Made by a program: the position numbers and the translations under genes. A stretch of DNA of 64,000 nucleotides from a virus, in UHGV virus genome UHGV-1558314, one strand, 5' to 3'. Positions 1,803 through 51,519 of the stretch are shown here, in pieces (position 1 is the stretch's first letter; every line of letters begins with the position of its first letter). The notes below the pieces were generated by a model. The model saw nothing but the letters and a program-made list of their open reading frames with translations, had not been told where the DNA came from and ran no database searches.

Positions 1803-1869
1803 TGTGTATGAATGTTCAGAATGTAAATTCACTATATGTACATATAACACGAATATTCAAGTTAGATGC

Positions 1870-3861
1870 ATGGCTGAAGTCAAGAATCAAGTGTTTAATC
1901 CAGTAGCACAATTCAAATCTGCTGAAGAAAAAGAAGCTGCGAAAGTTATATGGTGCAGTGAATCAGTCGCAATGGCATATGCTGCAGTTGACCAAGGCTT
2001 GCCACTTAGAGCAAATCCGTGGTTCTTTGGCAATATTGCACTGCGTAAGCCCGGATTGCTATACAGATACACTGACATAGAATTGCGTGAATGGCTTAGA
2101 TGCAAGTATGACATATTATATTTTGCTGACACATGGTGTCAGATTTTAACTCCAGATGGCACAAGAAAGCATTTTAATTTGAGACCATATCAACGCAAAA
2201 TGCTGCGTGCATATCAACGACAAAAGTATACGATAGTTCTTACTGGGCGACAAGTAGGCAAAACGGTCGTTACATCAGTATTTCTTGCTTGGGCTGTCAT
2301 TTTCAATCGTGAGCTCAACATAGCAGTACTTGGCGACCGCTTGGCTACATCAAGCGAAAACCTGAACAAAACAAAAGACATCATAAACAATCTACCATTC
2401 TTTATGAAGCCTGGTGTATTTGTTTGGAATGGGGGAATGGTTGCATTTGACAATGGTTGCAAAATTATCACAGGCACTGCTCAAAAGTCATCACTTGTCG
2501 GTAAAACAATTCACATCTTGTATCTTGATGAGCTCGCAATTCCGCCTGCTCAGCAATCAAAGACTCTTGTAGACTATGCATTACCAACAATTGCATCATT
2601 GCCAACTGGCAAAGTTATTGTAACATCTACGCCATCTGGTGATAATGTGTTCAAGACTTTGTGGCTTGGCGCAATTAACAAAACAAATGGCTTCTTTCCA
2701 ATTCAAGTAAACTGGTGGGACATACCAGGTCGTGATGAAAAATGGAAAGCTGAACAAATTGCAATTCTTGGTGAAGACGCTTTCAATGAGCAATACAACT
2801 GTGTGTTCTTGTCAGGTGCAACATCAATCTTCAATTCAAGAGCAATTGATGATATTGCAAGACGGCAGCAAAAGTACGAATTTGTTGCTGATGAGCATCT
2901 TGAATCGCTGCTCAGATTTTTCATTGCTGATTCAGATGTTGGCACTGAACCTGAGCCGCATTCATTTATGACTTGGCGTGCAGATATTGACCCAGCAACA
3001 CTTAAAAATGAAACATGCATCATCAACATCGACATTGCTGAAGGTTTATCTGGCGACTTTTCTGTCATACATGTGCATCGTATAGTTGACATTGCAAAAG
3101 ACACTGAACTTGAGCTTGATGCAAGCAATCTGTACGATATGTTTGATGACGACAAAAAATCACTATTTGCAAAAGCTGTTGAAATGCAACGTCAAATGTC
3201 AGCAACGCAAACTCAAGATGATGACGATGATGACGATGACGATTGGTTTGGTGCAGACGATGATGTTGCTCAAGGCGTCGATGCATATCAAGATTATGCA
3301 AATGCTGCAGTAGAAGAGATTGGCTTGTGGCGTTCAAATGTGACATCAATCAAAGTCATGGCTCTATATTTGCAGTTCTTAATGACATATGTGTTTGACG
3401 CAAACAAAACAAAGATTATCTATGAACGCAACAAATATGGCGGAGAGTTTCGTTCATATTGTTTGTCTGAACGTGCACGCAATATTGCAATTGATGAAGA
3501 GAGCTTCGTAAGCTTCCAACGAACGCTTGGTTCAGAACAACTTGCACCAGGCTGTTCAATTACACCGGGCACAAAGCCAGTGTATGTAAGACAGCTCAAA
3601 GACCTTGTTGAAACTGGTAAGATTCTTGAAAACAATGCAGACACACAAAGAGAGCTTACATATTTTGGCGGTGTCAAAGGCAAGAATGGGCACGTGTCAT
3701 ATCAGGCGTCGCCTGGCTTCCATGATGACATTGCAATGACTCTTGTATCTCTTGCAGCGTTTATGGACACTCGATGCAATGACTGGCTTGAACTGCTTGA
3801 TGTGTTCTACAATGGAAGCAGCCAAACAAGTTCTGATGATGACGATGACGATTGGATTTGA
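1870..3861 (+). CDS. terminase large subunit
   Basis: Walker A-like VLTGRQVGKT and Walker B-like HILYLDE as in T4 gp17-type terminases; two poly-Asp tracts (DDDDDDDDD internal, DDDDDD near C-terminus). Confidence 0.85.
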   Translation: MAEVKNQVFNPVAQFKSAEEKEAAKVIWCSESVAMAYAAVDQGLPLRANPWFFGNIALRKPGLLYRYTDIELREWLRCKYDILYFADTWCQILTPDGTRKHFNLRPYQRKMLRAYQRQKYTIVLTGRQVGKTVVTSVFLAWAVIFNRELNIAVLGDRLATSSENLNKTKDIINNLPFFMKPGVFVWNGGMVAFDNGCKIITGTAQKSSLVGKTIHILYLDELAIPPAQQSKTLVDYALPTIASLPTGKVIVTSTPSGDNVFKTLWLGAINKTNGFFPIQVNWWDIPGRDEKWKAEQIAILGEDAFNEQYNCVFLSGATSIFNSRAIDDIARRQQKYEFVADEHLESLLRFFIADSDVGTEPEPHSFMTWRADIDPATLKNETCIINIDIAEGLSGDFSVIHVHRIVDIAKDTELELDASNLYDMFDDDKKSLFAKAVEMQRQMSATQTQDDDDDDDDDWFGADDDVAQGVDAYQDYANAAVEEIGLWRSNVTSIKVMALYLQFLMTYVFDANKTKIIYERNKYGGEFRSYCLSERARNIAIDEESFVSFQRTLGSEQLAPGCSITPGTKPVYVRQLKDLVETGKILENNADTQRELTYFGGVKGKNGHVSYQASPGFHDDIAMTLVSLAAFMDTRCNDWLELLDVFYNGSSQTSSDDDDDDWI

Positions 3862-18600: not shown

Positions 18601-19232
18601 GCATCGACTACTCGAGATTCAGACATTTGTCCAGACTTTTCAAGTCGTCTTGACAACGTGTTATTTACAGGATGCACTTCTCGAGCCATGTCATGATTGC
18701 CCTCTGATTCAAGCTGGTCACTCAGCAACACAAGGCATTTCCAAATGACATACAGTTTTGCTTCATATGCATCAAGATATGTTTTCTTTGCTGCAGAAGC
18801 ATTTTCAGATGACACAAATACAGCGTCTTCAGTTTGAATTGACAGAGGCTTTGAGATTGTGTAGACGTGCAAGCCTGAACCAGAAGTTGACTTAAGCACA
18901 GCAACACACCACGGATATTTGCAAAGCATTGCAGCCAAACGTGGTTTGATGACTTCTACAAGTTCTTTTGAGTGAAAGTCCAAATCGACTGGTTGTAGAC
19001 CTGACCAAGTCAAGTAGTCATGAACTTGCTGTTTTGGTCGAGCAAACATTGTCGATTGCGACACAAAGGGACGATGCGCTTTATCTACTGTGTCAAGTGA
19101 CTCATCATTTGCAACTTTCATGATGAGGTCATACAATGAAATTTGTTGCTTATTGACAGTGTCTTCTGTTTTACGAACACTGTCGCCCATCATGAACTTT
19201 ATGCCACTGAGCAAATCTTTGACGTTTGACAT
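15633..19232 (-). CDS. large SF2 helicase-domain protein (possible replicative helicase/primase)
   Basis: Walker A LIARPGSGKTEF, DExH box VVVDESHLL, motif III-like LMTGTP; about 480-aa N-terminal domain of unknown function. Confidence 0.6.
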   Translation of the reverse strand: MSNVKDLLSGIKFMMGDSVRKTEDTVNKQQISLYDLIMKVANDESLDTVDKAHRPFVSQSTMFARPKQQVHDYLTWSGLQPVDLDFHSKELVEVIKPRLAAMLCKYPWCVAVLKSTSGSGLHVYTISKPLSIQTEDAVFVSSENASAAKKTYLDAYEAKLYVIWKCLVLLSDQLESEGNHDMAREVHPVNNTLSRRLEKSGQMSESRVVDASVCKISQPLFVARDKDVIINQNAQFIEQPEFDVSIYASVDAKFCIDKLKTMFDRLRGRFDYAPKSHMTAMTDGEQVFTQRDDITMIEEGTMLTITPQNYDNTGRYRLAYTLAWLYDLKSTTGGQYEHVLQMFLQMCSGNPKFNAEHNSWANSFRSAVERNAAGTCPCVWSSVKELREKHGFKFKFANKSSVTVNELIAEHNTEDAISQYIMSKVAQQKDFELRHTHVFKLAENEYLSTYKHELEEAFVTGINYLIARPGSGKTEFIKQLTRDGKRVMLIEPYTSILQSKIEMSDLGMYCSFGQRGLELSKHVNVALTFDKFTLADPEEVSILYDYVVVDESHLLTMSAYRDVVPANVIDNLTKLQTKVILMTGTPVAEHMFCHFDTVIFCDKPLNYNKGVRFVCCKHDGDKITKLASHISTAIKAGKRILFPTNKGDAFTHAIVGAVRMMLGRNPKVKYYKRDNAMHDFVQSINESGTIGDIELLFCTNYLSVGIDINDSYEFDVIYDEAFTGQEIEQFNSRLRKISIQSYVYFSMTKANGDPRNITAYDELDLTLTNVEKLTFWDILQMQTKRNDSRSLFDFFEWAFNAPYFYRDPYTGEIKIHLTAYKLNMFEQKWRQWATQLVIIQNTLSSYGYECKVVQDVVADDMMIAQVLNAAKEARAEYRQEKNSKIGKMFASFVNQATFEVIMNLPAEQVQESDRFELVKKNGKLTYLVEDRRVFDDWRHALRTLSHHYLFDTIMKTIDMYVIDNKDMYRLARLKSIKDAVSIFDAGSSGTMHESNIKIVSYMLNDVFNNSKDAVSIASEVVDQIVKNSALIYFDSRGYTPQSPDVLDSVASIARRMFNAITVHDGDIYAIKQLPAFDSGYSRSRDSIAQMLHVLFTDDIFADNTERLLASAKLQSTISSLVFDKQQAEAQVSSGIISFKRVDIDNKFDDSNLTVIEDAPAKDLESPVSKADVEAEREAKRQKAATELERLADELMNRGF

Positions 19233-30357: not shown

Positions 30358-30652
30358 AATCTGTCAATATAAAGCATCGTACAAGTCTTGAAATGAGTCG
30401 TTTATGACCCGTCTCAACTCGTATCATATGCTTGGTGAATAGTGGACCTGCTGCTGTTGCACAATGTCTGTCAAGGGCATTTAATACTTTGTTCATTGCA
30501 ATCAATGGGTGCAAATGACTATTCGGCCAGCATTCTTCTGCAATGTATGTCAAAATGCCATCGCCATATGACACGACTGCGCATTTATCTGCAATAAGAC
30601 GCTTCTTAGCAATCTCTGCAACTTTCTGTGTAGAACAACGCATAGCAATCAA
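30332..30652 (-). CDS. hypothetical protein
   Basis: 106-aa ORF. Confidence 0.35.
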   Translation of the reverse strand: MIAMRCSTQKVAEIAKKRLIADKCAVVSYGDGILTYIAEECWPNSHLHPLIAMNKVLNALDRHCATAAGPLFTKHMIRVETGHKRLISRLVRCFILTDYENLHQIQ

Positions 30653-32643
30653 TCATCTGCAGCATCGCCATCGAAGCCCATAAGTACTTTGCGTACATGT
30701 GCATTGCCGCCAAGCCATGCATTGATTGCATCCCATGAGTCTTCTTTAGCGACTACTTGTTCGAGTACAGGTGCAGACATAATGTCTTCAAACTCTGTAG
30801 AAGTCAATGATGCAAGACCCTTCTTATGATTGACTTCCCAGTCTTTGCTGCCGTTGAATTTGTCTGCGACTTTATTGTAATCATCATAGAAGTAGAACTT
30901 TCGTTCTTCACCAGTTTTGCGATTGTTGCAGATGATGATTGGCGTGACTACATTGTACACAAGACCCATGTCAAACAACTCAGGCCAGAACTTGTAGAAG
31001 AACAGCTGCAACAATGATGAAATGCTGTAGCCATCAACATCAGCATCGGTCAAAATGCAAATCTTGCCATAGCGCAATTTACGTGGGTCTGCTTTTTCAT
31101 TGAATCGCAAGCCAAGTGACTGCATCAAACCAGCAATTTCAGGCTTTTCTATGAGTTTCTTTGGATTGTCATAGTAGCAATTGCCGATTGACTTACCACG
31201 AATACAGTAGAAGCCTTGTGTAAGCGCGTTTCGATTGACTCGAATACCTTGTGATGCAGAATCACCTTCTACAATGAACAGCATGCATTCATTACGATTT
31301 GTCTTTTGTGCAGCATCTACAAGTTTATTGACGTGAAACTGCTTTGTCTTGACTTCAAGTTTCTTATTGAGCTCCTTGGCTTCTTTGGCTTTCTCTTTCT
31401 CTTCTTCAATCTGTTTCTTGATTTTGCAGTCCATCAAGATGCGGTCAAGAATTTCAGTTTTTGTCAAGTATTTCTTGAGCTTATCTGAAATGAGAATTGG
31501 AAAGCCGAACTTTTGCGTCTTTGTAGCTAATTTGTCTTTGACCTGCGCATCGAATTCAGGATTAGGAATTTTCCACATTGACAAGATTGACATGTGCTTG
31601 AACACGTCTTTCTTTGCTGGTTCAAATCCATATTTGTTTTTGATGTGGCCAATCAAAAAGTCTGCACATACATTCGCAATGAAGTCCATATGCGTGCCAT
31701 AGTCACATCTAATTGAGTTGACTATTGCAAAGCTTTCAAAGAAGCCTGCTCTGCTTGGGCCAATCTCGAAACTGTAGTTCTCGTTTTCATCACCACGAAA
31801 TTCTTTGGTGTGTTCCCACAAGTCTTTGTACTCCCAGAAGTGTTTGAACTTGAACTCATAGTTTTCACCAGTGACTTCATTGTGCCATTCAACTACAAGT
31901 GGATTGTTCACATCACAACCCATGACTGCGACTTCAATTGCTCGTGACAACCACTTGTCTACAGTGTCATCTGGAATATGGTCAAGCGGCGCTGCGTTAA
32001 TCCACTCCCATCTACCAAGGTCAAGATGCGCCTCGATGTATGTAAAGTGTTCAGACTTACGACATTTGCTGACTTTTGCATCATCATGTCGACCCATATT
32101 GTCATACCAGCAAATTTCAAGTTTTTTGCCATCTTTTGCTGTGATGACTTTGAATGACTTAGACATCACATTGACAAGTGATGCACCAAGCCCATTAGTG
32201 CCAGACAATGCGCCGCGGTCAGCAACAAAATTTGAACCAGACCTCAATGAGCCAAACACCATCTGCGGTATGTACTCATTGTACTCTGGATGCATCACTA
32301 CAGGAATACCACCGTTGTCCCATACTGCAAGCTTGCCTGTTTTAGGATTGACTGTGACTGATATGCGATTGACTACTTCTTGTGCATGACTTTGAATGTT
32401 ACGTTGACGCTCATCAAAACTGTTATTTATGCACTCATTAAACATTGTGTTCAAGCCAATTGACTGATATGTGTCATAGACACGTCGAATCGGTCTTTCA
32501 GCATCTTCATATGGACGATACAACTCACATTCTTGTTCCGCAAGAAATTCAAGCGAACCTATGTACATGCCAGGCTTCAGTAGACAATGCTCGCGCGATG
32601 AAAGTTTTTTGAATTTTTCTGTCAGATTGTTTATGTCAGACAT
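30649..32643 (-). CDS. DNA topoisomerase II, ATPase/TOPRIM subunit (GyrB / gp39-like)
   Basis: GHKL ATPase-like N-terminus, GLGASLVNVMS, TOPRIM motif MLFIVEGDSASQG; start taken at MSDINNL (ATG at 32643), downstream of the promoter-like motif at about 32680. Confidence 0.85.
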   Translation of the reverse strand: MSDINNLTEKFKKLSSREHCLLKPGMYIGSLEFLAEQECELYRPYEDAERPIRRVYDTYQSIGLNTMFNECINNSFDERQRNIQSHAQEVVNRISVTVNPKTGKLAVWDNGGIPVVMHPEYNEYIPQMVFGSLRSGSNFVADRGALSGTNGLGASLVNVMSKSFKVITAKDGKKLEICWYDNMGRHDDAKVSKCRKSEHFTYIEAHLDLGRWEWINAAPLDHIPDDTVDKWLSRAIEVAVMGCDVNNPLVVEWHNEVTGENYEFKFKHFWEYKDLWEHTKEFRGDENENYSFEIGPSRAGFFESFAIVNSIRCDYGTHMDFIANVCADFLIGHIKNKYGFEPAKKDVFKHMSILSMWKIPNPEFDAQVKDKLATKTQKFGFPILISDKLKKYLTKTEILDRILMDCKIKKQIEEEKEKAKEAKELNKKLEVKTKQFHVNKLVDAAQKTNRNECMLFIVEGDSASQGIRVNRNALTQGFYCIRGKSIGNCYYDNPKKLIEKPEIAGLMQSLGLRFNEKADPRKLRYGKICILTDADVDGYSISSLLQLFFYKFWPELFDMGLVYNVVTPIIICNNRKTGEERKFYFYDDYNKVADKFNGSKDWEVNHKKGLASLTSTEFEDIMSAPVLEQVVAKEDSWDAINAWLGGNAHVRKVLMGFDGDAADD

Positions 32644-32830
32644 ATCTGTAAATTGAGATGTTTGTATATGTATATTGTACAACAAGAATGCAAAACTTGC
32701 ACTGAAAATATACACATTTTCACATAACAGCAAGCATAATGCCAAGCACTACTGCAAGACATATCAAACCTATGCCAAGAACAATAAAGTCCAGTATAGA
32801 ATACGTGTCATTAGACTGTTTCATAAGTAG

Positions 32831-35342: not shown

Positions 35343-35574
35343 AGATGTAGAGGTTTAGTATATTTGATAGTATATTATTTATAGATATATAATACTACAC
35401 ACTTGCAGATTTTGCACTTAGTTGATAAATAATTTGTAAACATTTTCACAAACTTTTAACAGCTCTTTCGCTTATGAAAACTACTCAACTCTGGTTTGAA
35501 CGCCAGCAGTCAATCGCGGGTGGGCTCTTCGTGCTCCTATCACTACTATTGATGTCAGACTGTATGACTATGAT

Positions 35575-36225
35575 ATGCCGACAAAGGCATACACGACTGG
35601 GACTCATAGCATCGTAGTATACTATGATGGCGGAATTGTTGCAAATGGCAACACACAAAATGGGCGTTGGTACTCATCTCGACTTCAGCTTCAGCAATCA
35701 AAGGGCGCAGTTATCACTATAGCATTGCAAGATGCAAGCATTAGCGGCGTTGGTTGTGCTACTGTGTCATTTTACGCAGATGATGCAAAGATACAAAATG
35801 GCACTATGCATGTCAAACTATATTGTCGTACACAATATGAGTTTGTATGGCCACAAGCATACATGACTCAGTATGTGAATGATTTAATGTATGCTGTTTA
35901 TGTAGAGCCAAGTGACGTAAGATTTAATACAAGAGCTTTTGTCAATTGTTGCGGTTGTGGTCAAGCATTGACTGACAACTTTAATGGAGAACTCTGGGAT
36001 AATGGCTATTCAATTGAAGACACTGACATTATGCAAGCTGACGCAGACGAATGGTGGCCAATGATTAGTAATGCCTATGCAGAATTTCCATACACTGTCA
36101 TAGCATCAAACATTCCGGAAGAGTCTATGGCATCTGGACTTGCAGCTTTTCTGCAAAGTGCTGGTGTTGGCAGTGTTTTCTATGTACAAGCATTGCAGCT
36201 TGGTGAACTTGTAAGTTCATTTTAG
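35575..36225 (+). CDS. hypothetical protein (isolated plus-strand gene)
   Basis: 216-aa ORF on the opposite strand to all neighbours, followed directly by a strong bidirectional terminator. Confidence 0.5.
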   Translation: MPTKAYTTGTHSIVVYYDGGIVANGNTQNGRWYSSRLQLQQSKGAVITIALQDASISGVGCATVSFYADDAKIQNGTMHVKLYCRTQYEFVWPQAYMTQYVNDLMYAVYVEPSDVRFNTRAFVNCCGCGQALTDNFNGELWDNGYSIEDTDIMQADADEWWPMISNAYAEFPYTVIASNIPEESMASGLAAFLQSAGVGSVFYVQALQLGELVSSF

Positions 36226-36242
36226 ACTGTAGCATGATACAA

Positions 36243-36300: not shown

Positions 36301-39300
36301 TTAGAACAGAGCAATGATGTTGTCAACAAACATAAAGCACTTTTGCAGCAATTCAGCTGTCGGCGTCATCTCATATGCTTTGCCATCATACATAAATCGC
36401 ACAGTGACAATGGGTGACACTTCGTCTTTGAATGCAAGCACAGGAACATCTACACCTGCAGTCAATTGCACTTCAACATCCTTGTCAGCTGCTACATCTT
36501 TAGCAATCACTGCAATATCTTGACAACGACCAGCAGCTACTGCATATCTAACGTTTGTCAATGTAGCAGACATGTCAGCAAGAGCTTGCATGATTTGCTG
36601 TTGAGTAAATTGCTCAACCGACTTCTTTGCAGCCTTGACAGCTTCGATATCTTGCGTATTTGCAAGAATCAATGCTACCACTGCAGGGTCAGAAGTAGTC
36701 CACCAACGACCATCAATTGCAAGCCACAGTCGATTGCCATTGACGTCAATTGCATATGCATATTGAGTGTTTGGCGCCAATGTGACTTTTCGAGTGTTCT
36801 TTAAGAACTCTGCTGCATCAGGTGCTGCAACAATGTTCTTGACAAATGACGGCAGCATTTCAGCTTCAAATGTTTGTGTAGCTTCAAAGACACCGCCACG
36901 TGCATCGTCATCAATTCTGCCTGCAAAGCGTTTGCAGATTTGAATGATTGTAGCCATGCCTACTGTTGGAACGACTTGACGTTTCATTGCAGGCATTTGC
37001 AGAGGCATTGTATCTTGCGCAATGTACAATGATGTCGCATCAACAGTGTCAAGTACTCGTGCAATGTCTGCAGTATCAACAATTACAAACCAGTCGCCAT
37101 CATGGCAGACAATGAGTTGCTTGCTGTCATTTGCATATGTCAGCAATACTGCAATGTCATTTTTGATTGAGATTGCAGGAATCCATGCTTGTTGCAGAGG
37201 TAAGTCAAGATTTGGTGTGCCGCATGGATAAAGCGCAGATGGCTGCATAATTGAGCGGCAATCAAAACCTATTGAACTTACAAGCTGCAGAACTTCGCCA
37301 CGAATGCAAGCATTACTTTGATTCTGTGTCATGTCATATGCAAGCCAACTGCAAATTGCTTTGATTGATGACACTGGAAATGCTACGCCAATTGTGCTGT
37401 ATGCAATCTTGCCGTCTGCTGACAATGACTCATCAACTGCAATGCCAGCATCATTGAACAATGACATATCAATTGAACAATGGAATTCGCCACCAGGCAT
37501 TGGACCTGCAGCAATGCCATAGCCATGACCAAGTGACAGCCATTCTTTCATTGCATCTGAATTGTATGACGAGAACTTGTACAGCACATATGACTTATGC
37601 GGGTCACTAACTGACTTGCGAATCTCCATCTTGGCGCCTGCTTTCTTTGCAATTGCTTTAATGTTATCGGCATGCTTTTTTGCCTCAGACTTGTCAAATT
37701 TGCCTTCATCAAGTTGAGCAATCTTGCCAAGCGCATAAGCAGTCCATGCAATTAACAATTGATTCAGTGCACCAACTTCTGACCACGACTTTTCTGCAAA
37801 CCATGAGCCAAGACCAGATTTGTCAAGGGTTTCTTTGCGTTCAGCTTTTGTTGTGCTGTCCCACCACTTGCCAGTCGCAGGCAATACAATGTCTTTGATT
37901 TGCTCCTTACGAAGCTCATTGACACCAATTTTGCCCTCATGAACATGCGCATTTGCATGATATGCTCTAAGAGCAGCCAACGCAGCATCATATGAGTCAT
38001 AGTCTTGCGGCCAGAATTCCCCATTCTTGCCAATGATGCCCCATACACCCTTTGACTTTTCTTGGATGACAGAGTCTTTGTCACCGGCAGCTTCATTGAC
38101 AAATGCCGTGTTAAGATATGCAATGACATGCTGAAGCTCTTTGTCGTCTGCAGACTCATTGACGTTCTTAGCGTAATCACCAAGAATTGATTCAACTTTG
38201 CCACGCAAATTGCTTGGCATATCATCAAGGTCAAGATTGCCGTACTTCGTAACTTCTGGTTGAGACAATCCAAGCAATTTCAACACCTTATCGCGGTACT
38301 TATTTGCAAGCTTCTTCCAAATCCAGCGGAATGTTACAGCGCCAATCAAGAATTTGATGAGGCCCTCATCAAGTACATGTTGTTCACGCAAATATGCTGT
38401 AATGCATGAACGTTGACCATCAGTCAAGTCAACCCACATTTTATCAAGCAATATTGAATCTGGGTTGCTTGCAATGCCAGCGCCGCTGCGGTTGTACACA
38501 TTCATTCTGTCAATTGCTGGTGTTGCGTCATTGTCCCACCAAGCTTGTGCATATGAACATCCAGCAGGATTTGAGATTGCTTCATTAATGTACATGACAT
38601 TGAAGATTTCGCAAAGACGCTTGCGACATTCAGGTGACATAACTTGCCATTGTGTTGCAATTTTGTCTTCTGACCACTGCAACAGCATGTCTGCAAATTC
38701 TTTACCTGCGCATTGCTCAACTGCACCATGTTTCGAACGCCAATAATTGTCAGGCTCAATTTGTGCAATTGCATGAACAAATGAAGTCAGATTGTATGAC
38801 GCAGATTCGCAAATGCAATGCTGTTCAATGTAGCTACGAACAGCAAGTGCAGTGTCTTCCGGCAAGTTGCTATATGGTGACTCATAGATGTTTGCTTGCT
38901 GATTGAGCATATGTGGAGCAACTTCTGCAATGATTTGTTTGCGAACATTCAATGGCCATGCATTCCATGAAGATTCTACAGATTCATCAAGATGCATGCC
39001 AATTGCATCCATAACTGCATCAGCATCTTTGCCCGACAGTTCGTCAAACAATTTGTCTACTACTGCATAATCATATCGCAAATTTGGCTGAGCCTTTGCA
39101 AGAGCGTCCATCATTGCTTTGCGTTCTTGTTTTGACGCATTATTCCATGTGCCAGCATACAATTCTGCTGTCGCGCTTTCACAGACAATATCTGCAGCAG
39201 CATATGCTTGCTTCATAATGTCCATGAAGATTGACTTCATTTTTGGATGCATCACATGATACTTTTCATTGTAGATGTCAAGTACGCCATAAACATCTTT

Positions 39301-39507
39301 CAATGGTCGAATGCTTTCTGATGAGCCGAATGATGGCTTCAAAATTGAATTGCATACACGTTCAACGGTGCCACGCATAAACTTGACATCACTTCGCTTG
39401 TCACTGATAGACATAAATGCATCAATGACAGACTTGATGTTGTCATCTGCAGCTTCATTGACAAAGCCTACTGGTCGACCGCCAAACTTGTTTGTTTGTG
39501 TTGTCAT
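36301..39507 (-). CDS. large hypothetical protein (1068 aa)
   Basis: Long uninterrupted ORF; no recognisable catalytic motif by eye. Confidence 0.55.
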   Translation of the reverse strand: MTTQTNKFGGRPVGFVNEAADDNIKSVIDAFMSISDKRSDVKFMRGTVERVCNSILKPSFGSSESIRPLKDVYGVLDIYNEKYHVMHPKMKSIFMDIMKQAYAAADIVCESATAELYAGTWNNASKQERKAMMDALAKAQPNLRYDYAVVDKLFDELSGKDADAVMDAIGMHLDESVESSWNAWPLNVRKQIIAEVAPHMLNQQANIYESPYSNLPEDTALAVRSYIEQHCICESASYNLTSFVHAIAQIEPDNYWRSKHGAVEQCAGKEFADMLLQWSEDKIATQWQVMSPECRKRLCEIFNVMYINEAISNPAGCSYAQAWWDNDATPAIDRMNVYNRSGAGIASNPDSILLDKMWVDLTDGQRSCITAYLREQHVLDEGLIKFLIGAVTFRWIWKKLANKYRDKVLKLLGLSQPEVTKYGNLDLDDMPSNLRGKVESILGDYAKNVNESADDKELQHVIAYLNTAFVNEAAGDKDSVIQEKSKGVWGIIGKNGEFWPQDYDSYDAALAALRAYHANAHVHEGKIGVNELRKEQIKDIVLPATGKWWDSTTKAERKETLDKSGLGSWFAEKSWSEVGALNQLLIAWTAYALGKIAQLDEGKFDKSEAKKHADNIKAIAKKAGAKMEIRKSVSDPHKSYVLYKFSSYNSDAMKEWLSLGHGYGIAAGPMPGGEFHCSIDMSLFNDAGIAVDESLSADGKIAYSTIGVAFPVSSIKAICSWLAYDMTQNQSNACIRGEVLQLVSSIGFDCRSIMQPSALYPCGTPNLDLPLQQAWIPAISIKNDIAVLLTYANDSKQLIVCHDGDWFVIVDTADIARVLDTVDATSLYIAQDTMPLQMPAMKRQVVPTVGMATIIQICKRFAGRIDDDARGGVFEATQTFEAEMLPSFVKNIVAAPDAAEFLKNTRKVTLAPNTQYAYAIDVNGNRLWLAIDGRWWTTSDPAVVALILANTQDIEAVKAAKKSVEQFTQQQIMQALADMSATLTNVRYAVAAGRCQDIAVIAKDVAADKDVEVQLTAGVDVPVLAFKDEVSPIVTVRFMYDGKAYEMTPTAELLQKCFMFVDNIIALF

Positions 39508-39619: not shown

Positions 39620-42600
39620 TCAATTGCATGCTGAATGTCCGCAGTTGGTGCATCGAACACAGCCGTCAAACTTGACCATGTCACCACCGCATTCAGGGCA
39701 CTTTGCATACATTTTTGAGCCATCTTGAATATGCAGTTTCAATGCACGACCAATTGCTTTGCAGAATGTTCCGACAGATGCAAAGCTTTTTGCAGTTTGG
39801 TCGACAATTTCGCCAAGGTCAATACCATTGCGAAGCATCGTTGAGTATAGTCGAGTAATTGTTTGTTGCTCATCTGAACCAAGACGTTCTGATATATTGT
39901 CATAGTGCTGCAAGAATGACAAATTGTCACCAAGCTTGTAGTGCTTCTTATCAGTCTTTGTGATTGTCGTTTGTTCAATGCCTTGCAACTTGTCGAATTC
40001 ATCTTTGTCAAGTTCAAATGCAAAGATTTCATAAGGTCGACCGTCATCACAGCCTACAAGAATACACCACTTGCGCTTATACACTGACACGCAATACACT
40101 GCAGCAGGCAATACTGGTTTTCGTTTTGAGCGATGACCAGATTGCAAGATGTGCGACTTGTCTTTTGACTGCTTGTCATCTTTTACGAGAACACCTGCAC
40201 GTGAGCCGTCTCGATAAATTGTGCAGCCCTTGCAGCCAGATTTCCATGCAGTCATATAAATTTCACGAACGAGTTCTTTTGTTGCAGAGTTTGGAATGTT
40301 GACCGTTACAGAAATTGACGAGTCAATGTATTTTTGCAATGCACCTTGCAGTTTCACCTTGCCAATCCAGTCAACATCTTCAGTAGTTGCCTTGTAGTAT
40401 GGTGATTGAACAAGCAACTCATCAATGACTGCTTGTGGAGCATTTGATAGCCAAGCTTTGATACGAGACATTTCTGCTTCTGACCATTCAATGCCAGTAT
40501 CTTTGACAAGAGTAAATTTGCCATCGCCAAGCTGCAATCGTTTACAAATCCACTGCATCAATGGGTAGTGAACTACAGCATATTCAATGAACTTGTCACC
40601 AGTAGTCTCATCAATGAAGTTGATGTCAGCTTCATTATCAACTGCAGTAGGCTTGCGACGACGTTTATGCAGCGGCATAAAGACAGGTTCAATGCCAGAC
40701 GTTGTCTGAGTCATCAAAGCTGTAGTGCCTGTTGGCGCAATTGTGGTCGTGTTAATGTTTCGACGGCCAAATTGCTGATAAGTTTTGATATGCTCATCAT
40801 CAATCGGTTCAGATAGCATACGCTGTACGAACTTTGACTGCACATCTGTGTCATAGTCGAATATTGCAAATGCGCCACGAATCTTTGCTAAGTCAATCGA
40901 TGCTTCATAAGTAGCCTTTACAAGCCATTGTTGCATAGTGACTGCGAAGTCAATTGACTCTTGTGAACCATAGCGCAAGCCAAGCATTGCCATTGCATCG
41001 CCAAGTGCAAGGAAGCCCATGCCATATCTACGAGTATTTGTCAATTTGTCATAGACTTTGTGCCACAAGTCAAGTTCAGTCTTTTTGATGTCAAAGTCTT
41101 CTTTGTCTGACTGTACCTTTGCAATGATTCGTTGCACTGCTTCAATTTCAAGCTGTACAAGGTCATCCATGATGACTGCACAATCATACGTGTCTTTATA
41201 GAATGTCTCAAAGTCAAATGACGCATCAGCAGTCCAAGGATTAAGCACGTATGCAGTCAAATTGCGATGTGACAAAATGCAGCTTGCATATGCTGCAAGA
41301 GGTTGTTCACCACAATTTAATGTATTGACTACTTGCTTGTCATTGACTGCAATAAAGAAATTGTGGAAGTCTTCTACTGTACCATTGTACACATCTGCTT
41401 TGTTCATGTGACGTGTTGCAACGACTTTGACAATTGTATCACCAGTAGTGTCAATGTCTGCATATTTGCTGCAGCCACCTAATGCTGCACAAGCTTCACA
41501 GCAATATGACTGTTCACGATTGTCATAAGAGATTTCGAATTCTTTACCACAGCACTCGCATTGTTTGATAACTGTATTTCGTTCTGTTTTTACAAGCTCA
41601 TCAGTCTTCAATGCAATTGATAGCTTATCTGCGCTTGGCATATCAATTGCCCACAACGTGTCATTTGTCGCAAGGTCAATTGCATACTTGAAATCACCAT
41701 TAGCAAGTCTGAACTCATGATTTGCTGTGCAATTGATGACATGACCATCATCAAGCACAATCTGAATGATTTGTGCATTGTGTGCAGTCAATCTTGGTCG
41801 ACGCATTGTACGCACAACAAGCTTGCCATTAGCGTCAAGACAATACACTGGAATGTCTTCGCCGTTATCAGCAAGCTCTTTGAATGTCTTCAAGCCTGAG
41901 CCATCAGCAACAAGCACTTTTGTGTCACCAGTGAAGCATGGATTTGTTGAGCGCTCTTCATACATTTTGCCGTATGCTTTCGAGTTCGACTCTTCCATAA
42001 TGCGGTCCCAAAAGAATACACCAGGTTCTGCAGATGCCCATACATTATCAACAATTTTGTCAAACAATGCTTTTGCATCTGATGTCTTATGCAGCTCTTG
42101 ACCATTAGAGCCACGCCAAACATGCTCAAACTGTTGTTCTGCAAGCACTGCACGCATAAATGCATCAGTAAGCTTGATGGAAATGTTTGCGCATGTGATT
42201 TTCGTCAAGTCCTTTTTTGCATCAATGAACTTATCTGCATCAGGATGCTCAATTGACAATGACAACATCAATGCGCCACGCCTGCCATTTTGTGCAACTT
42301 CTTTTGTCGATGTTGAAAAACGTTCCATAAATGACACTACACCAGACGTCGTAACAGCACTGTTATGCACTTCTACGCCTTCTGGACGAATATGTGACAA
42401 ATCATGGCCGACACCACCACGACGTTTCATCAACTGAACTTGTTCTTCATCTATTTTGAAGATGCCGCCATATGAGTCTGCATCATTGCCTATTACATAG
42501 CAATTTGACATTGATGTGTAACCGCCAAGACCAATACCAGCCATTGGAGAACCACCAAGTACAAATCGCTTAAATGGCTCAAGCAAATATGCAAGTCGCT

Positions 42601-42841
42601 CTTTTGACAATACACGTTTGCCTGTCTGTTCTTCAAATTGTGATTCTATACGGTCAAATTCATTGACCCAGCGTTCATGCATATCAGACAATGAGTGTTC
42701 ATACAGATTGTCTTTGTCATGATGCAAGTATTTTGACATGCATATGTCAGCAGCCATTGAGTCGCCTGTAAATTCATGTGTCAGTGTAGTGTGCACTTCA
42801 GCATATTCAGGCGACCCAATTTGAATAGGACGTTTTGTCAT
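39620..42841 (-). CDS. ribonucleotide reductase catalytic subunit (probably class II NrdJ-like), intein-containing
   Basis: Active-site NPCGE is split (…ERSTNP | intein | CGEQPL…); C-terminal zinc ribbon CPECGG...CVRCTNCGH; start taken at MTKRP (ATG at 42841). Confidence 0.8.
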   Translation of the reverse strand: MTKRPIQIGSPEYAEVHTTLTHEFTGDSMAADICMSKYLHHDKDNLYEHSLSDMHERWVNEFDRIESQFEEQTGKRVLSKERLAYLLEPFKRFVLGGSPMAGIGLGGYTSMSNCYVIGNDADSYGGIFKIDEEQVQLMKRRGGVGHDLSHIRPEGVEVHNSAVTTSGVVSFMERFSTSTKEVAQNGRRGALMLSLSIEHPDADKFIDAKKDLTKITCANISIKLTDAFMRAVLAEQQFEHVWRGSNGQELHKTSDAKALFDKIVDNVWASAEPGVFFWDRIMEESNSKAYGKMYEERSTNPCFTGDTKVLVADGSGLKTFKELADNGEDIPVYCLDANGKLVVRTMRRPRLTAHNAQIIQIVLDDGHVINCTANHEFRLANGDFKYAIDLATNDTLWAIDMPSADKLSIALKTDELVKTERNTVIKQCECCGKEFEISYDNREQSYCCEACAALGGCSKYADIDTTGDTIVKVVATRHMNKADVYNGTVEDFHNFFIAVNDKQVVNTLNCGEQPLAAYASCILSHRNLTAYVLNPWTADASFDFETFYKDTYDCAVIMDDLVQLEIEAVQRIIAKVQSDKEDFDIKKTELDLWHKVYDKLTNTRRYGMGFLALGDAMAMLGLRYGSQESIDFAVTMQQWLVKATYEASIDLAKIRGAFAIFDYDTDVQSKFVQRMLSEPIDDEHIKTYQQFGRRNINTTTIAPTGTTALMTQTTSGIEPVFMPLHKRRRKPTAVDNEADINFIDETTGDKFIEYAVVHYPLMQWICKRLQLGDGKFTLVKDTGIEWSEAEMSRIKAWLSNAPQAVIDELLVQSPYYKATTEDVDWIGKVKLQGALQKYIDSSISVTVNIPNSATKELVREIYMTAWKSGCKGCTIYRDGSRAGVLVKDDKQSKDKSHILQSGHRSKRKPVLPAAVYCVSVYKRKWCILVGCDDGRPYEIFAFELDKDEFDKLQGIEQTTITKTDKKHYKLGDNLSFLQHYDNISERLGSDEQQTITRLYSTMLRNGIDLGEIVDQTAKSFASVGTFCKAIGRALKLHIQDGSKMYAKCPECGGDMVKFDGCVRCTNCGHSACN
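41315..41938 (-). mobile_element. mini-intein (208 aa) inside the ribonucleotide reductase gene
   Basis: Begins CFTGDTKVLV (block A), contains NCTANHEF (block B) and VYNGTVEDFHNFF (block G-like), ends ...VVNTLN followed by extein Cys; precise excision restores NPCGE. No LAGLIDADG or HNH domain; carries a Cys-rich insert CECCGKEF...CCEACAALGGC. Confidence 0.75.
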
Positions 42842-42908
42842 TGTAACAGTGCATTTAAGTGTTTTAACAGTTTTATGTATAAATTGTACAACAATGGGCA
42901 AAATTTTG

Positions 42909-42958
42909 CATCAACTCAAAACAGCCAAGCAATGAATTGCTTGGCTGTTTTGAGTTGA
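42909..42958 (-). terminator. long perfect hairpin (about 22-bp stem)
   Basis: tcaactcaaaacagccaagcaa / ttgcttggctgttttgagttga with loop tgaa, upstream of the ribonucleotide reductase promoter-like motif. Confidence 0.5.
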
Positions 42959-43149
42959 TGCGCACCTGCTATTTTACTTGAACAGCTTCTGCAAGAATGA
43001 AACTGCAATCTACTACATCATCTTCTTCGCATTTAGAATTGAAGTACTGCTGAGCATCCTTGGCATTGTCAAATGCTTCATACCATCGATGGTCAATGTA
43101 GTCTACTAATACAAGATAGTGTTTCATAGTTAGTTGCAGTTAGTTGTAG

Positions 43150-43780: not shown

Positions 43781-45322
43781 TTATCTACTTACAGAATCTC
43801 GCATTGAAATCATAACTTGCTCTTGAATTGACATAGGTATGATGTTGAAGTCTGACACTTCAGCAACGTCATCAACATCAAGTGCTCTTAATGTGTCTGT
43901 GTTACAGCAAGTCACTATGATTGACTTGCGAACATACTCATCAGCAACATTCCACAACAGCTGACAAATTGCTCGATTGTCAAGACAAATTTCATTGACT
44001 GTGCGGACAAGGCTGTACCATGCAGTCACATTATTGCGCTTCAGAGTTTCAAGCATATATCGTGCAAGCCCAAAACCTGCTACATATGACCCAGTCTGCT
44101 TATTGAATGACTCAATTGCGTATGCATCAAACAATGCTTCTGTCATCAAGGGCATTGCAGCGGTCATTCGGTAGTATCGATAGTCAACACATACAATCAA
44201 CCAGTTAACATATGAATTGACTGCGTATGCATGCGCTTTGAACCCAAGGTCATTCAAGATTTTGCAGATGGCATTGTAAGTCGATTCATCAGCATTGCCA
44301 AAGTTTGCAAGCAGCTTAACTTTAAGAATGTCTTCACCAATTGCATTTCTTGTAGCAGTGAATGATGGTATGCATGCAAAGCTTCTTTTGCAGATGTCTG
44401 TGATAAGTTGCTGTGCATCATTCACAAGCTGTCTTGCAGCCTCAGCACGCTTTTCAGACTGTGCTTGATATTTTGGCCGCAACTGTGATGAGCCAGTTGC
44501 AGCACCATATCGCATAGCAGCTTGCCAGTCCTTGAGATTATTTTGCAATTCACGAACATAGTCTGCAGCGACCATTGCAGATGGAGTTCTTTGCTGTTCG
44601 ATGAGTTTGTTGATGTTTGCAAGCACATCTGATGCAAACATATCTTTTGGTTTGACTTTCGCAATTTCAGCAAGCACTGCAGGTACACGAGCAATGCCAC
44701 GAGGCTCATTTGAAACTACTACTGCATAATCTACAAGTGCCTCACATACAAGCTGTTCATCGACAAAGTACTCAGGATTCTGCACAGCGTCTTCAACAAC
44801 TGCAATCAATGTTGCTATACGATTGCCGTCAGGCTTATTGCCAAACAGCTCAATGTACAACATATCTGCTTGTTGGTCTGTCATTGAACCTGCAATGTCA
44901 ATTGACTTTGCCAGCTTATTAAGCAGTTCAGCTTGCTTACTCGACAATCTGACTTTGTATGATGACTCTACAGCTTCTTTGACTGCTTTGAGTTTTCTAT
45001 CAATGTCAAGACTACTTTCATTGACATTCATACCAACAATGCCAGCAGCGTCAGTGTTAAATTGCTCAACAGTTTCTGCTGCAGTTATTGGCGATGACAC
45101 AATAGATTGTTTTGCATTTGCTGCAAGCTGATTGAGTCGAGTGACTGCTTCAGAATCTTGCGCAACTGCAAGATATCTTACGCACAGCTCATCAATCTGT
45201 GAAAGATAACTTTGGGTCATGTTTATCGAAAAATTGTTGTTTCTTGACGAATAGCTGTTGGATGCAATTTGCAGAAACACTTCGACATTTCTAAGTTCCG
45301 ATGATGACAACAATGTTTCCAT
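43781..45322 (-). CDS. hypothetical protein
   Basis: 513-aa ORF. Confidence 0.5.
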   Translation of the reverse strand: METLLSSSELRNVEVFLQIASNSYSSRNNNFSINMTQSYLSQIDELCVRYLAVAQDSEAVTRLNQLAANAKQSIVSSPITAAETVEQFNTDAAGIVGMNVNESSLDIDRKLKAVKEAVESSYKVRLSSKQAELLNKLAKSIDIAGSMTDQQADMLYIELFGNKPDGNRIATLIAVVEDAVQNPEYFVDEQLVCEALVDYAVVVSNEPRGIARVPAVLAEIAKVKPKDMFASDVLANINKLIEQQRTPSAMVAADYVRELQNNLKDWQAAMRYGAATGSSQLRPKYQAQSEKRAEAARQLVNDAQQLITDICKRSFACIPSFTATRNAIGEDILKVKLLANFGNADESTYNAICKILNDLGFKAHAYAVNSYVNWLIVCVDYRYYRMTAAMPLMTEALFDAYAIESFNKQTGSYVAGFGLARYMLETLKRNNVTAWYSLVRTVNEICLDNRAICQLLWNVADEYVRKSIIVTCCNTDTLRALDVDDVAEVSDFNIIPMSIQEQVMISMRDSVSR

Positions 45323-50461: not shown

Positions 50462-50812
50462 TTACAAATATGAGTACAGTTTGTTCATAACTCGTTCAAT
50501 TGCAAATTCAACACCATATTGCAACAACTGTTCAGTGCTAAATGTCTTTGCTGCATGTGCATGCGCAACAATATGCTTTGTCTGTGCATATAATATCCAA
50601 GTATCAGTTGGCCTGTCATAAGTTACTGTCAGTCTACATGTTTGCAACACAAACTCTTGACTAAAGTATTCTCTTCGCCAAAACTCTGGTTCTGCAATAT
50701 GCAAATCAAGCCAAGCAAACTCAAACAGAATTTGTTTAAGTTGACGTTGATGCTTACGTTCAGCACGATATGAGTTGCTGAATAGCCATTTAATGATGTT
50801 CATCATTTGCAA
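50462..50812 (-). CDS. hypothetical protein
   Basis: 116-aa ORF. Confidence 0.4.
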   Translation of the reverse strand: MQMMNIIKWLFSNSYRAERKHQRQLKQILFEFAWLDLHIAEPEFWRREYFSQEFVLQTCRLTVTYDRPTDTWILYAQTKHIVAHAHAAKTFSTEQLLQYGVEFAIERVMNKLYSYL

Positions 50813-51519
50813 TCATTATGCTGAGTATGAATTGCGTTGCCCTGTGAATCCAAGCGAATCGCAGTTTGCATTGCGACTTCAGATTGTGTTTGTTCTGCTT
50901 GACGAGCTCTTTGAAGTCCACCTCCAGGGTGACATGTGTAAAATCTATCAAAGTCAGTGCCAAGCTGTTCAGCAACAGACAACATGATGTTATCACCAAT
51001 GAGCTGAGATGCTAGCAGAGAATTCGTCGGAATTCGTGGATTGCGTGAGTCCTCGTCAATTGCTGGCAATGATACAAGCAAGTCTGCCCAAGCATTCATA
51101 TCAGTGACCTTGCCACCAGCAAAGTTAATGCCGATGATTTGGCAATTCGGTGCAAGCAATTCACGATGTTCACGAAGATATGTCATTGCAGTTGCAAGTT
51201 CAGATGTGTTGCCTGTTTTGCTGAATGCTACAATAACATCATTGTTTCGAATCATACCAAAGTCACCATGCATTGCATGTACTGCATCAAAGAACGCAGC
51301 ATCAAGTGAAATTGAATAGCATGTTGCAGCAAGTTTTTCACAGCAATGCACATTTTTGCCAATGCCAGTGAACAATACTTTGCCATCAGACTTCAATGCA
51401 TTTGCAATAATGTCTGCTGCAATGCCAAGAACATCATATTGCGCATCTGAAATGTTGTTGTGCCATGCTACAAGCGACTCGACTGATGCAGCAATGCCTT
51501 TGTGTACAAGTGTTTTCAT
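50803..51519 (-). CDS. SIS-domain sugar-phosphate isomerase (arabinose-5-phosphate isomerase-like)
   Basis: DGKVLFTGIGKNVHCCEKLAAT and VIVAFSKTGNTSEL match the KdsD/KpsF-type SIS signature; no CBS domains. Confidence 0.7.
   Translation of the reverse strand: MKTLVHKGIAASVESLVAWHNNISDAQYDVLGIAADIIANALKSDGKVLFTGIGKNVHCCEKLAATCYSISLDAAFFDAVHAMHGDFGMIRNNDVIVAFSKTGNTSELATAMTYLREHRELLAPNCQIIGINFAGGKVTDMNAWADLLVSLPAIDEDSRNPRIPTNSLLASQLIGDNIMLSVAEQLGTDFDRFYTCHPGGGLQRARQAEQTQSEVAMQTAIRLDSQGNAIHTQHNDCK

What the first reader, a model, noticed from the sequence alone, without database searches (positions are those of the whole stretch)
41315..41938. Mini-intein with a Cys-rich insert splitting the NPCGE active site of ribonucleotide reductase
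The ribonucleotide reductase ORF contains a 208-aa insertion that starts with Cys (CFTGDTKVLV), has a TxxH block (NCTANHEF) and ends ...NTLN immediately before Cys. Removing it joins ...ERSTNP to CGEQPL, restoring the radical-site NPCGE motif of class I/II reductases. No homing endonuclease domain is visible, but there is a CxCC...CCxxC segment (CECCGKEF...CCEACAALGGC) where one would normally sit. The terminal residue pair is TLN rather than the usual HN.
Basis: partly seen in the sequence, partly recalled or inferred. Interest (0 to 1): 0.7.

Follow-up and report, generated by a model that had tools for sequence, protein, structure and literature searches.

The report
Zinc-finger mini-intein in phage ribonucleotide reductase
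A phage gene for the enzyme that makes DNA building blocks is interrupted at its catalytic cysteine by a small self-excising protein element (an intein) that has lost its DNA-cutting domain but kept a small zinc finger; the element type and its insertion site are well known, and only the retained zinc finger is unusual.

Summary
Window 41315-41938 encodes a 208-aa in-frame insertion (CFTGDTKV...VVNTLN) in a class II (NrdJ) ribonucleotide reductase gene (39620-42841) of an uncultured ~175-kb phage. Removing it restores STNP|CGEQPL, so the +1 residue is the thiyl-radical cysteine.

The Cys-rich segment is a C-x2-C-x15-C-x3-C treble-clef, FCS-like zinc finger (C127, C130, C146, C150); the other cysteines vary. 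It is not peculiar to this intein. At least 118 representative NrdJ inteins at this site form one family. Most members carry an HNH nuclease plus this zinc finger, and 18 minis have lost the HNH but kept the finger.

The terminal "LN" is normal for the family: Leu is the commonest penultimate residue and His occurs in 1 of 118. The intein is under purifying selection (dN/dS 0.085).

Verdict: an ordinary intein at the most common RNR site, with a modestly novel architecture. Splicing and zinc binding are untested.

The parts
39620..42841 (-). nrdJ precursor gene (1073 codons plus stop): class II ribonucleotide reductase interrupted by the intein
   Evidence: Pfam Ribonuc_red_lgC 1.5e-74. Best solved relative is T. 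maritima B12-dependent RNR, E 1e-50. The same 1073-aa product is called on three independent contigs.
41939..42841 (-). N-extein (301 aa), ending ...YEERSTNP
   Evidence: Translation. 96.5% nt identity to sibling phage L006 right up to the intein border.
41315..41938 (-). Mini-intein, 208 aa, from Cys1 to Asn208
   Evidence: Homology to the sibling genome breaks exactly at 41936 and 41314.
41642..41938 (-). N-terminal HINT lobe (aa 1-99), with Cys1 and block B T71-A-N-H74 (41717-41728)
   Evidence: Matches DnaE inteins over aa 4-83. C1, T71 and H74 are invariant in the 18-sequence alignment. pLDDT 88-98.
41441..41641 (-). Insert at the canonical endonuclease / split-site position (aa 100-166): linker, zinc finger, linker
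41474..41581 (-). Zinc-finger core RNTVIKQCECCGKEFEISYDNREQSYCCEACAALGG (aa 120-155). Predicted ligands are C127 (41558-41560), C130 (41549-41551), C146 (41501-41503) and C150 (41489-41491).
   Evidence: C13, C16, R27, C32 and C36 are invariant in 52 family fingers. Modelled as strand-knuckle-strand-helix with pLDDT 92-94. Weak Pfam hits to zf-FCS and a treble-clef family. The ligands are invariant and the extra Cys variable among close variants.
41315..41440 (-). C-terminal HINT lobe (aa 167-208): block F DVYNGTVEDFHNFFI (41351-41395) and block G VVNTLN
   Evidence: Aligns to DnaE intein block F. V183, Y184, G186, T187, V188 and H192 are invariant.
39620..41314 (-). C-extein (564 aa plus stop), beginning with Cys+1 (41312-41314). 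This Cys is the thiyl-radical cysteine of NPCGE.
   Evidence: Aligns to C322 in STNPCGEIGL of T. maritima NrdJ. The identity of C322 as the radical site comes from my own knowledge of that enzyme.
39623..39700 (-). C-terminal CxxC...CxxC zinc ribbon of NrdJ (CPECGGDMVKFDGCVRCTNCGHSACN). It belongs to the extein, not the intein.
   Evidence: Translation. Many homologues end with the same motif.

Best explanation
This is a contiguous class-1-type mini-intein sitting immediately N-terminal to the thiyl-radical cysteine of a phage class II ribonucleotide reductase (NrdJ).

Inferred mechanism. The 120.7-kDa precursor is translated whole and the two HINT lobes fold together. Cys1 undergoes an N-S acyl shift. 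Cys+1, the future radical cysteine, attacks the thioester. Asn208 then cyclises and releases the 23-kDa intein. An S-N shift leaves a native Pro-Cys bond and an active 97.7-kDa NrdJ.

The 67-aa insert is what remains of a homing-endonuclease module. Relatives carry an HNH_3 nuclease, helical DNA-binding segments and this same C4 zinc finger at the same place. Here the nuclease has been deleted and only the finger survives, as a folded zinc-binding knob on the splicing domain.

Without a nuclease the element cannot home on its own. It persists vertically because it occupies a site where imprecise loss would kill the enzyme, and because an occupied site cannot be cut by the HNH inteins circulating in sibling phages.

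Shown here: the insertion, the fold, the family membership, the absence of HNH, the conservation of the finger, purifying selection and the allele swap. Inferred: splicing activity, zinc binding, the origin of the finger as a DNA-binding part of the nuclease, and immunity to homing.
For: Anatomy and junction:
- Searches give the sequence and borders.
- The spliced extein aligns gaplessly to T. maritima NrdJ across STNPCGE.

Fold:
- pLDDT 89.7, pTM 0.85.

Family:
- 118 representative NrdJ inteins sit at NP|C...[N/Q]|C[G/S]E.
- 76 are full-length with HNH plus finger. 18 minis (<=270 aa) have the finger and no HNH.
- HNH_3 passes the Pfam cut-off in 4 of 5 full-length relatives tested.
- PHROG 15471 'HNH endonuclease' matches the HNH of relatives at profile positions 30-107 and, weakly, this finger at 93-129.

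The ending is the family norm:
- Penultimate Leu in 49 of 118, His in 1 of 118.
- Terminal Gln in 67 and Asn in 51.
- Asn at the block-F 'VYD' position in 115 of 118.
- Inteins lacking the penultimate His, or ending in Gln, are known to splice (PMC4031507).

Selection:
- Against a 98%-identical allele, intein dN/dS is 0.085 (19 synonymous and 7 non-synonymous codon differences). The exteins give 0.045.
- Among the 15 listed of 35 variants, all 1073 aa, the catalytic residues and the four ligands never vary.

Discrete element:
- Sibling phage L006 is 95-96% nt identical over 22 kb. Homology stops at the intein borders, where L006 has a 463-aa HNH-plus-finger intein that is only about 50% identical in the splicing lobes.
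- A third relative, P0153, has a canonical ...VHN mini-intein at the same site.

Site:
Against: - Splicing was not tested.
- Two residues that usually assist catalysis are absent: the penultimate His (Leu207 here) and the block-F Asp (Asn185 here). Activity therefore rests on family-wide conservation and purifying selection rather than on canonical chemistry.
- Assigning the finger to the endonuclease's DNA-binding apparatus rests on co-occurrence with HNH and on weak PHROG matches (E about 0.01). No DNA-binding data exist.
- The finger is below the gathering threshold of every Pfam family and has no sequence relative among solved structures.
- Conservation of the finger in nuclease-less minis (E128 and R141 as well as the ligands) is more than expected for a decaying remnant. 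That leaves room for a current function.
- The neighbour-joining tree used to argue for repeated HNH loss has long, poorly resolved branches.
Confidence: 0.75

Rival explanations
1. The zinc finger is not a passive remnant. It has become necessary for the intein, either structurally (it nucleates or stabilises folding of the two HINT lobes) or as a regulator that makes splicing, and hence dNTP synthesis, depend on zinc or thiol redox state.
For: - 18 of 22 minis keep the finger after losing HNH.
- In several mini/full-length neighbour pairs, the full-length partner has about 100 aa between the finger and block F, while the mini has about 30. Sequence on both sides of the finger was therefore removed and the finger spared.
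- The non-ligand residues E128 and R141 are invariant in the minis.
- The finger is modelled with pLDDT 92-94, and the whole-chain pTM is 0.85.
- Zinc and redox control of splicing are documented for other inteins (references cited in PMC4031507).
Against: - Minis that lack the finger exist with intact reading frames. P0123 (178 aa) is 77% and 72% identical in its splicing lobes to the HNH-plus-finger intein P0013, and P0149 is only 140 aa. The finger is therefore dispensable at least in some lineages.
- No inter-domain contact data were available to me.
- No experiment bears on this.
Confidence: 0.17
2. The retained finger still binds the nrdJ homing-site DNA and helps the element spread in trans, using the HNH nuclease supplied by a co-infecting sibling phage's intein.
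For: - HNH-bearing and nuclease-less alleles occur in 95-96% identical phages assembled from neighbouring accessions: ERZ27260843/53 and ERR1136811/18.
- Zinc fingers of the HNH endonuclease I-TevIII are required for DNA binding (PMC1865063).
Against: - The two inteins are only about 50% identical and share no detectable nucleotide similarity.
- No clear co-conversion tract flanks the intein.
- A nuclease acting in trans would favour its own intein as the repair template.
Confidence: 0.05
3. The insertion is a dead, non-splicing intein remnant, and the reductase gene is a pseudogene or yields an inactive enzyme.
For: No penultimate His, no block-F Asp and no endonuclease.
Against: - The 1073-codon frame is intact and nucleotide-identical on three contigs from different sources.
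- All 15 listed members of the 35-member variant cluster are full length.
- Extein dN/dS is 0.045 and intein dN/dS is 0.085, which is incompatible with a gene whose product cannot function.
- The atypical residues are shared by more than 100 family members.
Confidence: 0.03

Closest known systems
Contiguous RNR ('RIR1') inteins inserted directly N-terminal to the thiyl-radical Cys, for example the intein in the NrdJ of Thermus phages G20c and P23-45
   Same: Same insertion point (NP|C). Dassa et al. call it the most frequent site for contiguous RNR inteins. The N-terminal splicing lobe is homologous: 43% identity over aa 1-103. Cys1 and Cys+1 are both present.
   Different: The G20c intein carries a LAGLIDADG-type endonuclease (LAYLIAWVIADG) and no zinc finger. 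The window's intein has no nuclease and an FCS-like finger.
NrdJ-1 naturally split intein (PDB 8ubs; Dassa et al. 2009)
   Different: NrdJ-1 is split, with a free-standing endonuclease gene between its halves. It is inserted one residue further C-terminal, it has no zinc finger, and sequence identity is only 22%.
In-frame HNH inteins (Dalgaard et al. 1997, as cited in bioRxiv 10.1101/2025.01.02.630785) and the full-length members of this family (P0152, P0008, P0010...)
   Same: Same family by sequence (E down to 1e-38), same site, same finger and the same atypical block F/G residues.
   Different: The window's copy lacks the HNH_3 domain and the helical segments around it: 208 aa against 370-514 aa.
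I-TevIII and I-TevI phage homing endonucleases
   Same: Both have a modular layout of nuclease, linker and small zinc finger. I-TevIII (HNH, in the nrdB intron) needs its CX2CX12-13HX3C fingers to bind DNA. The I-TevI finger orders the linker rather than binding DNA (PMC1865063).
   Different: They are intron-encoded and not part of an intein. The ligand pattern differs (C2HC against C4), and no sequence homology was shown here. This is a resemblance, not membership.
Chilo iridescent virus RNR intein and other inteins lacking His(G:6) or Asn(G:7)
   Same: [quoted passage not shown] 67 of 118 members of this family end in Gln.
   Different: The window's copy ends in Asn. Homology to the CIV intein was not tested.

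Membership tests
Intein (HINT-domain protein-splicing element, class 1) | In-frame insertion that is absent from homologues and whose removal restores a conserved host motif | tested here: met
   NP|CGE is restored. The spliced extein aligns gaplessly to 1xje. 93 of 120 homologues have a contiguous NPCGE.
Intein (HINT-domain protein-splicing element, class 1) | HINT fold | tested here: met
Intein (HINT-domain protein-splicing element, class 1) | Nucleophiles: Cys/Ser at position 1, C-terminal Asn (or Gln/Asp), and Cys/Ser/Thr at +1 | tested here: met
   Cys1, Asn208 and Cys+1. All are invariant in 15 close variants.
Intein (HINT-domain protein-splicing element, class 1) | Block B TxxH | tested here: met
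   T71-A-N-H74, invariant in A1. Present in 116 of 118 family members.
Intein (HINT-domain protein-splicing element, class 1) | Assisting residues: penultimate His (G:6) and block-F Asp (F:4). These are common but not obligatory. | tested here: not met
   Leu207 and Asn185. The whole family lacks them. Known inteins splice without His G:6.
Intein (HINT-domain protein-splicing element, class 1) | Demonstrated protein splicing | not testable with these tools
   Only indirect support: intein dN/dS 0.085 and extein dN/dS 0.045.
Mini-intein (no homing endonuclease) | No endonuclease domain in frame, in another frame or on the antisense strand | tested here: met
   Pfam finds no HNH, LAGLIDADG or GIY-YIG domain. 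The overlapping alternative-frame ORFs are 63-111 aa and have no significant family hit.
NrdJ NP|C intein family with HNH_3 plus zinc finger (defined here) | Sequence homology across both splicing lobes and the finger, at the same insertion site | tested here: met
   Single-stretch matches over aa 1-197/205 at E 1e-24 to 6e-38. Finger consensus CExCG..F...RE..FCSxxC.
NrdJ NP|C intein family with HNH_3 plus zinc finger (defined here) | HNH_3 nuclease domain | tested here: not met
   Absent here but present in 4 of 5 full-length relatives. The window's copy is therefore a deletion derivative.
Pfam zf-FCS (PF06467) | Score above the gathering threshold (22.4 bits) | tested here: not met
   10.8-12.8 bits, E 0.1-0.44. 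5 of 52 family fingers reach E<=0.01, best 8.7e-6. The C-x2-C...C-x3-C pattern is shared, so 'FCS-like' describes it but does not make it a member.
Class II ribonucleotide reductase (NrdJ) | RNR barrel with the NPCGE radical loop, closest to B12-dependent enzymes, and no separate radical-generating subunit needed | tested here: inconclusive
   Ribonuc_red_lgC 1.5e-74. The best solved relatives are B12-dependent RNRs, and phage homologues are annotated as B12-dependent. Cobalamin binding itself was not testable.
Split intein (NrdJ-1 type) | Two separately encoded halves | tested here: not met
   Single continuous ORF.

The most novel reading that the evidence does not exclude
The FCS-like zinc finger is a third, selectively maintained module of a large intein family that is so far known almost only from metagenomes. 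In nuclease-less copies such as this one it has been co-opted, either as a folding element the splicing domain now depends on, or as a zinc/thiol-redox switch that gates maturation of ribonucleotide reductase. The second case would link phage dNTP supply to the metal or redox state of the infected cell.
Probability: 0.12. Interest if true: 0.6.

Novelty: new variant of a known kind. Interest (0 to 1): 0.33.

Why it matters
Inteins at the RNR radical cysteine are textbook cases, so the core finding is ordinary. Three points add some value.

1. The work defines a large family of NrdJ inteins: at least 118 representatives at the 50%-identity level, found in phages and in Saprospiraceae chromosomes. 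The family combines an HNH nuclease with a conserved C4 zinc finger and systematically lacks both the penultimate His and the block-F Asp. I found no description of it in the searchable literature. No GenBank phage record matched the finger region, and NCBI labels the bacterial copies simply 'HNH endonuclease'.

2. The finger often survives loss of the nuclease. That offers a natural test of whether endonuclease-derived modules become integrated into splicing domains.

3. Near-identical sibling phages carry three different inteins at one site. This gives a tractable system for studying intein competition and the homing cycle. The small Cys1/Cys+1 inteins with unusual catalytic residues are also possible protein-engineering tools.

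Tried and rejected
- Word-indexed protein search with the intein and with the finger profile returned nothing. This reflects the limits of the index, because the exhaustive HMMER scan found thousands of relatives.
- Single-sequence AlphaFold gave an unusable model, pLDDT 36.5. It was replaced by the run built on an alignment.
- Megablast of the gene, and of 24 kb around it, against GenBank phages found no match.
- tblastn of a full-length relative's nuclease region found only one uncultured huge phage, represented by two records. I therefore could not show that the finger occurs in free-standing GenBank HNH genes. The only support is weak PHROG matches.
- The finger profile searched against PDB sequences gave only spurious 'CxxCGKxF' knuckle matches to C2H2 fingers.
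- Foldseek against PDB and BFVD returned only generic inteins, and none covered the finger.
- The AFDB library was not available.
- I checked for a hidden nuclease in another frame or on the antisense strand, as reported for actinophage inteins. None was found.
- I looked for a co-conversion tract around the intein against the sibling genome. There are 26 mismatches in the first 303 nt downstream, against 108 in 1695 nt overall. This is not convincing.
- There is no second intein in the window.
- Four literature searches for zinc-finger-bearing inteins found no description.
- The 'native RNR domain' idea was rejected.
Full report
**The observation**

The feature lies on the minus strand. The plus-strand translation of 41315-41938 is full of stops. 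The reverse complement reads as a continuous 208-aa segment, CFTGDTKVLV...NCTANHEF...KQCECCGKEFEISYDNREQSYCCEACAALGGC...DVYNGTVEDFHNFFIAVNDKQVVNTLN. It is embedded between ...YEERSTNP and CGEQPLAAY....

The host ORF is listed as 39620-42901 from a TTG. Three independent metagenome gene calls use the ATG at 42841, which gives a 1073-aa product. A perfect hairpin sits just upstream.

**The host gene**

Pfam finds the ribonucleotide reductase barrel across the whole protein (E 1.5e-74), with the intein splicing domain nested inside it. After the 208 aa are removed in silico, the 865-aa product aligns without a gap across 'STNPCGEQPL' to 'STNPCGEIGL' of the B12-dependent reductase of Thermotoga maritima (E 1e-50). 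In that enzyme this cysteine is the thiyl-radical residue; that assignment is from my own knowledge.

The best phage relatives are NrdJ genes of uncultured huge phages and crAss-like phages, at 36-44% identity. The window itself is phage DNA. It has a T4-type large terminase at 1804-3861 and a GyrB/topoisomerase II-like gene at 30649-32745. The exact gene occurs on contigs of about 175 kb. No GenBank phage is close at the DNA level.

**It is an intein**

- An exhaustive HMMER scan gave 2622 hits at E<=1e-3 and 31 at E<=1e-30.
- Solved DnaE inteins match both the N-terminal lobe (aa 4-83) and block F (aa 162-197).
- A single-sequence structure prediction failed.
- With an alignment of 18 related minis, the model reached pLDDT 89.7 and pTM 0.85.
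- Among the 120 best-listed whole-protein homologues, 93 have an uninterrupted NPCGE. The segment is therefore not a native domain.
- The insertion point, directly N-terminal to the radical cysteine, is described in the literature as the most frequent site of contiguous inteins in class I and II reductases. The split NrdJ-1 intein sits one residue further on (PMC2677866).

**The Cys-rich insert**

I located the intein borders in the 150 best representative hits. Of these, 118 are NrdJ inteins at NP|C...[N/Q]|C[G/S]E. Their lengths fall mainly into two groups.

| Class | Length | Count | HNH motif | Zinc finger |
|---|---|---|---|---|
| Full-length | 370-514 aa | 76 | yes | yes |
| Mini | <=270 aa | 18 | no | yes |
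| Mini | <=270 aa | 4 | 1 of 4 | no |

These counts come; the remaining 21 sequences of that tally, which included the window's own intein, are intermediate in length or carry other combinations. The zinc-finger consensus is xVxKxCExCGxxF-x6-RExx(F/Y)CSxxC. Pfam HNH_3 passes its cut-off in four of the five full-length relatives tested.

In a 52-sequence alignment of the finger, C13, C16, R27, C32 and C36 are invariant, and E14 and E28 nearly so. Among 15 close variants, C129 and C156 change to Tyr while the four ligands never change.

The model shows strand 122-126, knuckle, strand 133-137 and helix 148-154, at pLDDT 92-94. That is a treble-clef-like finger. Pfam matches are weak and below threshold: zf-FCS at 10.8-12.8 bits, and a 'probable treble clef' family at E 0.012. 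Only 5 of 52 family fingers reach E<=0.01 for zf-FCS. No solved structure is related by sequence, and no solved intein covers this region.

The PHROG family 15471 ('HNH endonuclease') matches the HNH part of full-length relatives at profile positions about 30-107, and weakly matches the window's finger at positions 93-129. This agrees with the finger belonging to the endonuclease module. The characterised HNH homing endonuclease I-TevIII likewise has small zinc fingers in its DNA-binding domain, whereas the I-TevI finger organises a linker (PMC1865063). These two are analogies, not demonstrated homology.

**The 'TLN' ending**

In the family, Leu is the commonest penultimate residue (49 of 118) and His occurs once. 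The last residue is Gln in 67 and Asn in 51. The Asp usually found in the block-F 'VYD' is Asn in 115 of 118. The window's intein is therefore typical of its family. Splicing without the penultimate His, and with a terminal Gln, is documented for other inteins (PMC4031507). How this family compensates for the missing block-F Asp is unknown.

**Population evidence**

The precursor belongs to a 90%-identity cluster of 35 sequence variants. All 15 listed are 1073 aa, and one was seen on 39 contigs. Against a 98%-identical allele (L008), the results are as follows.

| Region | Synonymous codon differences | Non-synonymous codon differences | dN/dS |
|---|---|---|---|
| Intein | 19 | 7 | 0.085 |
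| Exteins | 96 | 18 | 0.045 |

Catalytic residues and ligands are untouched in that comparison. Across the 15 variants, the intein has 31 variable sites in 208, against 71 in the 865 extein residues. It therefore evolves somewhat faster than the exteins but is clearly constrained.

A sibling phage (L006, a 181-kb contig from a neighbouring accession) is 95-96% identical in nucleotides over 22 kb. The alignment stops at window 41936 and resumes at 41314, exactly at the intein borders. In between, L006 carries a 463-aa intein with an intact HNH motif and the same type of finger. That intein is only about 50% and 57% identical in the two splicing lobes. A third relative (68% identity) has a canonical mini-intein ending ...VHN with a 'VYD' block F at the same site. 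The site is thus contested by different inteins within one phage lineage. No empty-site allele was seen among the close relatives.

**Is the finger just a remnant?**

For a current role:
- 18 of 22 minis keep the finger.
- Minis are scattered among HNH-bearing relatives in a neighbour-joining tree of the splicing lobes.
- The spacing from finger to block F is about 30 aa in minis but about 100 aa in many of their nearest full-length neighbours. This implies that sequence was removed on both sides of the finger.
- The non-ligand residues E128 and R141 are invariant.

Against:
- The tree is poorly resolved.
- Minis without the finger exist with intact frames. One (P0123, 178 aa) is 77% and 72% identical in its splicing lobes to a 500-aa HNH-plus-finger intein. 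The finger can therefore be lost.

I rate 'retained, folded module of endonuclease origin with at most a structural role' as most likely. I give a modest probability to a current functional role in folding, or in zinc/redox gating of splicing.

**Verdict**

The element is an ordinary kind of thing, a mini-intein at the commonest reductase site. Its architecture is modestly new: a finger-only derivative of an HNH-plus-zinc-finger intein family that I could not find described. No GenBank phage record matched the finger region. Splicing and zinc binding remain to be shown experimentally.

Noticed in passing
window 42908-42961: Perfect GC-containing hairpin (CATCAACTCAAAACAGCCAAGCAA-TTCA-TTGCTTGGCTGTTTTGAGTTGATG on the minus strand) between the upstream gene and the nrdJ start. 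It is conserved in the sibling phage and looks like a terminator or regulatory stem.
   Followed up: partly
window 50803-50930 versus L006:647-1881: The 95-96% identical sibling genome has an extra ~1.2-kb cassette here. It encodes a 328-aa protein with weak PD-(D/E)XK nuclease hits (Phage_endo_I and TnsA_N, E about 2e-4). This is a candidate free-standing homing endonuclease gene that is absent from the window.
   Followed up: partly
window 35538-36240 (ORF 35575-36225, + strand) versus L006:17367-18091: This is a non-alignable replacement cassette between the sibling genomes. The window has a 216-aa plus-strand ORF (weak CorA-like copper-binding hit, 3e-5) in an otherwise minus-strand block. 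The sibling has an unrelated 256-aa gene on the opposite strand relative to its neighbours.
   Followed up: partly
window 42961-43140 versus L006:9557-9881: A short stretch just upstream of nrdJ does not align between the two otherwise near-identical genomes. The sibling has a 101-aa ORF there.
   Followed up: no
window 36301-39507, 15633-19232, 43781-45322 (all minus strand): Three large ORFs (1068, 1199 and 513 aa) have no significant Pfam family. The 1068-aa gene immediately downstream of nrdJ is conserved in all related contigs.
   Followed up: partly
window 39623-39700: NrdJ ends in its own CxxC...CxxC zinc ribbon (CPECGG...CTNCGHSAC), preceded by a weak TSCPD-domain match. The precursor therefore carries two unrelated zinc-binding motifs, one in the extein and one in the intein.
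   Followed up: partly
window 41441-41641 (intein insert) versus L008: Synonymous divergence in the insert is low: 2 synonymous differences in 67 codons, against 17 in the 141 codons of the two HINT lobes. The numbers are too small to interpret. Possible causes are a recombination patch or a nucleotide-level constraint.
   Followed up: no
proteins P0154, P0156, P0171, P0184: The same HNH-plus-zinc-finger intein family interrupts NrdJ on >1-Mb contigs of Saprospiraceae and Phaeodactylibacter MAGs. NCBI names the whole reductase 'HNH endonuclease', which is a mis-annotation caused by the intein.
   Followed up: partly
protein P0004: One representative reductase carries two inteins. The first has an in-frame HNH with its own CxxC pairs, inserted after 'GGRA'. 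The second is a finger-only mini-intein at the NP|C site.
   Followed up: no
protein P0029: A 330-aa family member has no HNH but two tandem copies of the zinc finger. This recalls the tandem fingers of I-TevIII.
   Followed up: no
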